Shown here piece after piece: positions 36,100 through 36,746 of a DNA stretch of 64,000 bases (the stretch's first letter is position 1; each line of letters opens with the position of its first letter). Position numbers and translations under genes: made by a program. This stretch comes from Raillietiella orientalis (taxonomy: Eukaryota). The stretch covers positions 310,001-374,000 of the forward strand of contig JAYWIR010000017.1 in the NCBI GenBank assembly GCA_036172245.1, written 5' to 3'. The notes below the pieces were generated by a model. That model did not search any database and was not told the origin of the DNA. It saw nothing but the letters and a program-made list of their open reading frames with translations.

Positions 36100-36114
36100 T
36101 TCTGGTCCCTTCTT
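36100..36114 (+). repeat. Left copy of 15-bp target-site duplication TTCTGGTCCCTTCTT
   Basis: Identical to 36732-36746. Confidence 0.92.
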
Positions 36115-36531
36115 TCATCGTTTCTTTACTGACTCGGTGAGGTGGAGAGCGAGCCGTCGTCGCAATGACGGCGGGCCGGTTCTCGTTTCTCCAACCAAGC
36201 GCAGGTGCCGAGCACCTGACCCGTTCGATCGTCCGGATTGCCCCGCGCTCGCGTCCGCGATCCTCTCTCGTTCCGCGAGAAGGTGCGACCGCCTCGGGGT
36301 ACGGGCGAGACGCGATCCGCTCCGAGGACAGTGTCAGGTGAGGAGTTCGACTGGGGCGGTACATCCGTCAAAAGCTAACGCGGGTGTCCTAAGGCCGGCT
36401 CAGCGAGGACAGAAACCTCGCGTAGAGCAGAAGGGAAAAAGCCGGCTTGATCCAGATTTTCATTACGAATACGGACCGCGAAAGCGAGGCCTAACGATCC
36501 TGTCGACTTTGCGCACAGATCATGAGTTTTA

Positions 36532-36578
<47 letters not shown>

Positions 36579-36601
36579 GGCCAAGCGTTCATAGCGACGT
36601 C

Positions 36602-36646
<45 letters not shown>

Positions 36647-36731
36647 GAATTCGCCAAGCGTTGGATTGCTCACCCACCAACAGGGAACGCGAGCTGGGTT
36701 TAGACCGTCACGAGACAGGTTAGTTTTATCC
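36115..36731 (+). pseudogene. 28S (LSU) rRNA fragment, domain V/peptidyl-transferase region; dispersed copy, not an rDNA unit
   Basis: Conserved LSU blocks GACAGTGTCAGGT..GACTGGGGCGGTACA, GGTGTCAGAAAAGTTACCACAGGGATAACTGGCTTGTGGC, GATCCTTCGATGTCGGCTCTTCCTATCATTG and GAGCTGGGTTTAGACCGTC..GAGACAGGTTAGTTTTA, plus a GC-rich expansion segment at ~36140-36320. Confidence 0.97.
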
Positions 36732-36746
36732 TTCTGGTCCCTTCTT
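36732..36746 (+). repeat. Right copy of 15-bp target-site duplication TTCTGGTCCCTTCTT
   Basis: Identical to 36100-36114. Confidence 0.92.

What the first reader, a model, noticed from the sequence alone, without database searches (positions are those of the whole stretch)
36100..36746. Tailless 28S rRNA fragment inserted into a LINE with a perfect 15-bp TSD
Seen: ~617 bp of LSU domain V lies between two identical copies of TTCTGGTCCCTTCTT, and LINE copy A coding homology continues on both sides (versus copy C: LCYIRRMV/MGYISTIV on the right, TATRWSYL/ATARWHHL on the left). There is no poly(A) tail. The 3' junction reads CCTTCTGGTC where canonical 28S continues CCTACTGATG, and the 5' junction shares CTT. 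Established: 7-20-bp TSDs are typical of LINE target-primed reverse transcription; tailless retropseudogenes and 28S-derived SINEs are known in mammals. Inference: rRNA was retroposed in trans by microhomology priming. This reverses the usual situation, where the retroelement inserts into rDNA. If multi-copy with fixed ends, it would be a 28S-derived SINE family in an invertebrate.
Basis: partly seen in the sequence, partly recalled or inferred. Interest (0 to 1): 0.75.

Follow-up and report, generated by a model that had tools for sequence, protein, structure and literature searches.

The report
28S rRNA retrocopy inside dead LINE
A 617-base piece of ribosomal RNA was copied back into DNA and pasted once into an old jumping gene, and it belongs to a crowd of such copies in this animal genome whose starts pile up at a few spots, several of them next to bases that are methylated in the ribosomal RNA of other species, as if the genome kept a record of where the copying enzyme stalled.

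Summary
Observation confirmed. 36115-36731 is 28S rRNA (19 substitutions in 617 bases and a 9-bp deletion against this genome's 28S) between two identical 15-bp copies. The empty site is colinear in 40 of 48 LINE loci. It is a young, single, tailless retrocopy in an older antisense LINE. No other copy shares both ends, so it is no SINE. Microhomology priming is weak (1 contiguous base; 5 of 7).

The larger point: the genome holds dozens to hundreds of dispersed 28S copies, many ending at mature RNA ends, with sharply clustered 5' ends. Nine of 23 local starts lie at or one base 3' of the m3U position of the peptidyl-transferase centre. Nine of 39 lie one base 3' of the yeast Gm805/Am807 positions, and one lies one base 3' of m1A645. 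This insert's own 5' end (base of the L1 stalk) recurs in 4 unrelated insertions and matches no modification I could place. An 18S test was null (0 of 7). Junction reads could not be checked. The scan earlier noted other rRNA and snRNA retrocopies in this genome, but no note on these start sites was found.

The parts
36115..36731 (+). 28S rRNA retrocopy, from the 3' strand of helix 76 (base of the L1 stalk) to the end of domain V; reference positions 576-1201 (reference 1 = G000:C158:51364); no tail
   Evidence: Rfam; 19 substitutions in 617 bases against C81 and 22 against C158, plus a 9-bp deletion after 36154; helix names from recall
36100..36114 (.). left copy of the 15-bp target-site duplication; its last 6 bases match 28S 570-575 at 5 of 6, so the cDNA end can lie anywhere in 570-576
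36732..36746 (.). right copy of the 15-bp duplication; its first base equals the next 28S base, 5 of the first 7 match
36699..36699 (+). first U of the triple-U in the peptidyl-transferase centre (reference 1169, the m3U position by homology); this copy reads through it with T unchanged
   Evidence: position placed from spacing to yeast Am2946/Cm2948/Cm2959 and to human 4549
35744..36099 (-). host LINE A, 3' part: end of the coding region, 3' UTR with terminal stem-loop and short A run
   Evidence: 811 candidate matches in the genome, best 71-77%; common 3' end of relatives
36747..37474 (-). host LINE A, upstream part with a decayed C-terminal cysteine motif; homology to relatives stops at about 37474 (5'-truncated)
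   Evidence: 1608 candidates, best 70-74%; no Pfam hit on the decayed frames
37600..39951 (+). second, related LINE (B) in the opposite orientation, with broken RT motifs; neighbour, not part of the insertion
   Evidence: (inverted arms 35958-35971 and 39938-39951)

Best explanation
A LINE endonuclease/reverse transcriptase, acting in trans, nicked the bottom strand of a dead LINE copy and primed reverse transcription on 28S rRNA at reference 1201/1202 with almost no base-pairing and no poly(A). It copied about 630 nt, passed the m3U site, and stalled at the base of the L1 stalk (570-576), a recurrent stall point. The cDNA end was joined to the top-strand overhang through 3-6 bases of partial complementarity, and filling of the 15-nt stagger gave the duplication. 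The copy is single, has no promoter and decays neutrally. Shown: anatomy, empty site, relative age, single copy, recurrent 5' end. Inferred: the RNA template, the enzyme, the order of steps, and that the clustered 5' ends of the genome's 28S copies are reverse-transcriptase stops at methylated bases and at stable or protein-bound helix junctions.
For: Perfect 15-bp duplication with colinear empty site. Insert 3.1% diverged, host 72-81% to relatives. Four of 19 other independent copies that start 5' of reference 1100 start at 571-577 with unrelated flanks (binomial P about 9e-6). RNA origin of the class: 21 of 46 loci end at 1698-1708, 10 exactly at 1704, which is the end of the Rfam model, many followed by A-rich runs. 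Ten of 15 sampled 5'-half copies end at L227 3277-3288, at the start of the D7a hidden-break region (break location recalled). Nine of 23 starts in 1100-1260 fall on 1169-1170 (8 on 1170; P about 5e-12); m3U stops RT one base 3' of itself (PMC11641110), and the genome encodes the enzyme family PF02598. Nine of 39 5'-half copies start one base 3' of the Gm805 or Am807 positions, and one starts one base 3' of the m1A645 position.
Against: This insert and about 16 other copies pass the m3U site, and the 10 aligned show no mismatch there (one has a 6-base deletion over it), so the block is partial at best. This insert's own 5' end matches no modification I could place. None of 7 dispersed 18S 3'-half pieces starts next to the m1acp3-pseudouridine site. 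Within the 978-984 pile the excess on the two methyl+1 positions is modest (9 of 16, P 0.019), and 7 of 39 start at an unmodified helix base (964-968). The modifications are placed by homology, not measured in this organism. Few other copies show a duplication (4 of 46 loci; none clear in 15, several with short windows). The enzyme is not identified.
Confidence: 0.85

Rival explanations
1. DNA-level capture: a piece of rDNA, or of an older dispersed copy, was patched into a staggered double-strand break, and the 15-bp repeat came from fill-in.
For: No tail, partial microhomology at both joins (5 of 6 and 5 of 7), read-through of the m3U site, and many broken rDNA pieces in the assembly.
Against: The 5' end coincides with that of 4 unrelated insertions, and the class ends at mature RNA ends. 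A clean 15-bp duplication with no filler or deletion fits an endonuclease stagger.
Confidence: 0.07
2. The template was a pre-cut 28S fragment with both ends made by nucleases; the 5' end is a cleavage site at the exposed L1 stalk, not an RT stall. This is a variant of the best explanation that differs only in how the 5' end arose.
For: Recurrent 5' end without a known modification; Law et al. propose 28S-derived small RNAs as sources of chimeric pieces (PMC13174262); hidden-break ends show that free RNA 3' ends are copied here.
Against: The other piles sit one base 3' of RT-blocking positions; no other copy ends near 1201; a search for L1-stalk cleavage papers returned nothing.
Confidence: 0.25
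3. A 28S-derived SINE family with fixed ends.
For: Fixed ends exist for the 1170-1704 class; three loci share one flanked copy that starts at 574.
Against: No second copy has both ends of this insert among 28 other matches. The three 574 loci share hundreds of bases of flank, so they are duplications of one locus. The 1170 copies have unrelated upstream flanks except one pair, no common head, and their shared differences also occur in copies with other starts.
Confidence: 0.03
4. Assembly chimera.
For: No reads could be laid on the junctions.
Against: Perfect duplication, 19 private substitutions and a private deletion absent from three other 28S copies, a 3.9-Mb contig, and a 5' end shared with other loci.
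Confidence: 0.03
5. One-step chimera with the host LINE (template switch or twin priming).
For: 28S/LINE-1 chimeras exist in primates (PMC13174262); earlier scan notes report such chimeras elsewhere in this genome (unchecked).
Against: The insert has its own duplication, lies inside the LINE with both sides colinear, is antisense to it, and is far younger.
Confidence: 0.02

Closest known systems
Tailless retropseudogenes of therian mammals (Noll et al. 2015, PMC5322556; passages read), which include ten 5'-truncated 28S cases in human
   Same: RNA-gene fragment, no oligo(A) tail, flanking duplication, internal 3' end, insertion ascribed to LINE TPRT in trans
   Different: Invertebrate host genome; the target is pyrimidine-rich, not TT/WAAAAWW; contiguous complementarity is 1 base, below the 2-18 reported; the 5' end is recurrent
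SINE28 and sd28alu 3'-LSU fragments (Longo et al. 2015, PMC4994717; text parts 1-2 of 6, passages and part 1 of 2 of the supplementary PDF read)
   Same: The genome's 1170-1704 class ends at the mature 28S end with A-rich runs and seems re-derived from rRNA each time; 7 of 108 extracted human rows start at 4500/4501 (6 of them one duplicated family), next to m3U4500
   Different: The window's insert lacks the 28S 3' end and a tail; the paper does not link starts to modification (0 hits for 'methyl' or 'modif' in its main text)
[quoted passage not shown] 2026, PMC13174262; passages read)
   Same: 28S fragments next to LINE sequence, with a recurrent start (3636 in human)
   Different: Those are single-event 5' fusions, mostly sense to the LINE; this is a later, antisense insertion with its own duplication; 0 hits for 'm3U' or 'modification' in that text

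Membership tests
Tailless retropseudogene (Schmitz/Noll) | derived from a cellular RNA and 3'-truncated | tested here: met
   28S reference 576-1201 of a molecule that ends at 1704
Tailless retropseudogene (Schmitz/Noll) | no oligo(A) tail | tested here: met
   the repeat follows the rRNA directly
Tailless retropseudogene (Schmitz/Noll) | flanking target-site duplication with an empty site | tested here: met
   15 of 15 identical; 40 of 48 LINE loci colinear within 9 bp
Tailless retropseudogene (Schmitz/Noll) | target complementary to 2-18 nt of the RNA at the 3' end | tested here: inconclusive
   1 contiguous base, 5 of 7 with mismatches; 16 of 1123 positions do as well
Tailless retropseudogene (Schmitz/Noll) | L1-type target consensus TT/WAAAAWW | tested here: not met
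   the duplication is pyrimidine-rich on the sense strand; so it works like one but is not filed under the therian L1 class
Tailless retropseudogene (Schmitz/Noll) | made by relaxed L1 machinery | not testable with these tools
   donor enzyme unknown; the host LINE gave no Pfam hit
SINE28 / 28S-derived SINE | contains the 3' end of 28S and an A-rich tail | tested here: not met
   ends at 1201, no tail
SINE28 / 28S-derived SINE | several dispersed copies with the same ends | tested here: not met
   0 of 28 other matches share both ends as a dispersed copy
SINE28 / 28S-derived SINE | own Pol III transcription | not testable with these tools
   no RNA run available
28S/LINE chimeric insertion | RNA piece and LINE inside one duplication, RNA at the LINE 5' end | tested here: not met
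   the duplication encloses the rRNA alone, inside the LINE

The most novel reading that the evidence does not exclude
LINE-made rRNA retrocopies are a fossil primer-extension experiment: their 5' ends mark where a germ-line reverse transcriptase stalled on mature, modified, folded 28S rRNA (m3U of the peptidyl-transferase centre, Gm805/Am807, m1A645, the base of a GC-rich expansion segment, and the base of the L1 stalk where this insert starts). The same rule would explain the human starts at 4500/4501 and perhaps 4037-4040, so rRNA modification and structure could be read from genome assemblies alone, for lineages and epochs with no RNA data, and the L1-stalk stop may point to an unmapped modification or a conserved protein-bound barrier.
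Probability: 0.6. Interest if true: 0.72.

Novelty: new variant of a known kind. Interest (0 to 1): 0.55.

Why it matters
The insert alone is dead DNA of a kind known from mammals, here in an invertebrate. It matters as one member of a population whose ends are not random. If the starts are enzyme stalls, dispersed rRNA copies report on ribosomal RNA methylation and folding in past germ lines, show that a LINE enzyme stalls even at 2'-O-methyl sites in vivo, and offer a simple account of fixed-end 28S 'SINEs' that needs no master element. This is directly testable by primer extension and by cataloguing rRNA copies in genomes with and without the m3U enzyme.

Tried and rejected
18S test: 0 of 7 dispersed pieces from the 3' 727 bases start next to the m1acp3-pseudouridine position; the ten distinct dispersed 18S places from the Rfam search showed no pile there either (only 11 of 47 candidates scored). 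Pfam gave no RT or zinc-finger hit on the decayed host frames, so the LINE clade is not fixed. A first fetch for the 3' ends of 14 5'-half copies was placed too far downstream and gave no true hit; a second set of 15 found them. Folding of reference 265-610 gave a long GC-rich stem (z -2.7) but does not single out 573/574. Attempts to fix the human numbering near 4036 from print failed, so that mapping is recalled. Paper searches for a link between rRNA retrocopy starts and modifications listed nothing on point (listings only), nor did a search on L1-stalk cleavage or a word search of earlier findings. Apparent full-length matches C81, C158 and C72 were rejected as SINE copies because the 28S continues past both ends. 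A homing site for LINEs at this position was not supported: none of 48 loci has another insert at the same join.

Full report
1. Observation. The window is G000:C17:310001-374000 of a 210-Mb eukaryote assembly. The 15-mer occurs only at 36100-36114 and 36732-36746. Between the copies lie 617 bases of large-subunit rRNA (Rfam 434.8 bits) with no tail. Three longer 28S stretches (C81, C158, C72) match at 93-96% and continue past both ends, so they stand for the source. I use C158 as reference (position 1 = C158:51364). The insert is reference 576-1201, with 19 substitutions against C81 (3.1%) and a private 9-bp deletion. At that divergence both repeat copies stay intact about 4 times in 10.

2. 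Landing site. The flanks belong to a high-copy repeat (1608 and 811 candidates) with a common 3' stem-loop and short A run and a decayed cysteine motif on the minus strand. It is a 5'-truncated LINE-like copy at about 35744-37474; a second, related copy with broken RT motifs faces the other way from about 37600. Pfam did not recognise the decayed frames, so 'L1/Tx1-like' is a recalled resemblance and an unchecked scan note. Of 48 related loci, 29 join the two flanks exactly as one repeat copy predicts and 40 within 9 bp; seven differ more and one lacked a right hit; none has the insert. The host's best matches near the join are 68-82% identical, the insert 97% to its source: the insertion came much later than the host.

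3. Junctions. At the 3' join the repeat's first base equals the next rRNA base and 5 of 7 match, with the second base mismatched; 16 of 1123 positions match as well or better. At the 5' join the last 3 bases match and 5 of 6; 4 of 1071 positions do as well. A perfect 5-base match to the repeat's end lies 8 bases further in (reference 583) and was not used, which suggests that the cDNA end, not the best microhomology, set the join (inference).

4. Copy number. The insert as query gave 29 matches, with 26 of 26 candidates scored. None of the 28 others is a dispersed copy with both ends. The SINE reading fails for this element.

5. The population, 3' half of 28S. I catalogued 46 loci drawn (40 of 107 and 40 of 71 candidates scored; rDNA-like stretches and pieces flanked by the 28S-targeted element at 126 were left out). 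Twenty-one end at 1698-1708, ten exactly at 1704, which equals the end of the Rfam model, and many are followed by A-rich runs. After merging loci with shared flanks (C39/C41/C76a; C1d/C6) and pieces split by later insertions, 8 of 23 events that start in 1100-1260 start at 1170 and one at 1169 (P about 5e-12 against uniform), with unrelated upstream DNA. Reference 1169 is the first U of the triple-U: it fits the spacing of yeast Am2946, Cm2948 and Cm2959 (PMC5699541, passages) and a human motif numbered 4549 (PMC6052916, passage). Human U4500 and fly U3485 carry m3U, which stops RT at the base just 3' of it (PMC11641110, passages); the equation of 4500 with 4530 in the other numbering is recalled. 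The genome encodes the enzyme family PF02598 in two open exons. Differences shared among the 1170 copies also occur in copies with other starts, so they look like older rDNA states, not a master SINE.

6. The insert's own start. Four of 19 other events that start 5' of 1100 begin at 573, 574, 574 and 577, with flanks unrelated to each other and to the window (P about 9e-6). The conserved bases just upstream are absent from these flanks, so the boundary is not an alignment artefact. It lies at the top of the helix-76 3' strand, downstream of a long GC-rich stem (helix names recalled). I know no modification there; a human ribose methyl lies about 3 bases upstream by recall. In Longo's human table 3 of 108 extracted rows start at 4037-4040, which by a recalled mapping is the same place (P about 0.007 among 43 starts in 3600-4600). 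This mapping could not be confirmed from print.

7. The population, 5' half. A 1.5-kb query from contig C371 flagged 332 candidates, 40 scored. Of 39 dispersed loci, 16 start at query 978-984 (5 at 981, 4 at 983) and 7 at 964-968. Of 20 junctions fetched, 19 were sharp with unrelated flanks and one gave only an inner hit. Query 980 and 982 are the G and A that fit the spacing of yeast Gm805, Am807, Am817, Gm867 and Am876, so the two peaks are one base 3' of Gm805 and Am807; the excess inside the pile is modest (9 of 16, P 0.019). One copy starts at L227 1921, one base 3' of the A that fits m1A645 by spacing to Am649, Cm650 and Cm663; that methyl is conserved and gives a primer-extension stop (bioRxiv 10.1101/313874, passages). 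A second long copy starts 11 bases further in. Ten of 15 sampled 3' ends lie at L227 3277-3288, the start of the hidden-break region (location recalled), with no poly(A) at the rRNA end; at least one is fused to a downstream repeat, and no clear duplication was seen in the short windows.

8. Against. The insert and about 16 other copies pass 1169; ten aligned copies show no mismatch there and one a 6-base deletion. The 18S test is null (0 of 7). Two piles (964-968 and 573-577) have no known modification. Modifications are placed by homology only. Counts are floors from capped searches, and BLAST ends of old copies can be trimmed by a few bases.

9. Mechanism. Most likely: LINE TPRT in trans on 28S rRNA, primed with minimal pairing, partial read-through of m3U, stall at the L1-stalk base, joining by short imperfect microhomology, 15-nt fill-in (0.85 for a LINE-made retrocopy). 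Whether this 5' end is a stall or a cut in the RNA is open (cut about 0.25). DNA capture 0.07, SINE 0.03, misassembly 0.03, chimera with the host 0.02.

10. Known kinds. It works like a tailless retropseudogene (PMC5322556, passages: ten human 5'-truncated 28S cases) but misses the L1 target consensus and clear priming complementarity. It is not SINE28 (PMC4994717) and not a 28S/LINE-1 chimera (PMC13174262). Seven of 108 human rows start at 4500/4501, six from one duplicated family. Neither paper's main text mentions modification, and four searches listed nothing on such a link (open-licence library only; supplements of PMC5322556 and PMC13174262 were not read and may hold start tables). PMC5087906 and PMC5035012 were seen as single passages and add nothing decisive.

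11. Verdict. Real, single, dead retrocopy: ordinary by itself. Its value is as an entry to a genome-wide pattern in which rRNA retrocopy starts seem to record RT stalls on modified, folded rRNA. Interest 0.55; new variant of a known kind.

Noticed in passing
L133:2126-7587 (G000:C83:277126-282587); also C81, C72, C33, C249: A 5.46-kb RLE-type retrotransposon (zinc fingers, RT E 4e-30, one frameshift) lies antisense in 28S, with its 3' end after reference 96/97 and its 5' end before 126, replacing the stretch that holds the R2 site; repeated in tandem clusters. Earlier scan notes report the same family.
   Followed up: partly
L188 (C37) and L185 (C33): Two unrelated old 28S copies are interrupted by the antisense 3' end of a LINE of the host's kind at the same place, reference 1403/1404; C15, C19 and C1 copies are hit at other places.
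   Followed up: no
L037, L038, L039 (C41, C39, C76): One old 28S insertion that starts at 574 was multiplied with its flanks; C39 and C41 share 300 of 300 upstream bases and both lie near contig ends.
   Followed up: partly
L112, L020, L127 (C7, C15, C30): A possible further pile of 28S starts at reference 863-865 (3 loci); no modification placed.
   Followed up: no
L124, L009, L139, L263: The same short repeat head follows or abuts several rRNA pieces (28S and 18S), suggesting rRNA-SINE chimeras.
   Followed up: no
L040 (C15) at reference 1167-1172: A read-through copy has a 6-base deletion right over the m3U position, possibly an RT jump over the block.
   Followed up: no
window 35744-39951: LINE A (minus) and LINE B (plus) meet head to head near 37475; no shared duplication was found around the pair.
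   Followed up: partly
window 43896-46923 and 20464-21714, minus strand: Long open frames of 308-416 aa, the former set coiled-coil-rich, probably large exons of a host gene; only sub-threshold Pfam hits.
   Followed up: no
L032:4199-4306: A full-length U6 match 5 kb upstream of the C158 28S stretch.
   Followed up: no
PMC4994717 supplementary table 1: Human LSU fragments also pile at starts 3635-3639 (7 of 108 rows) and 1950-1956 (4 rows), unexplained by any modification I could place.
   Followed up: no
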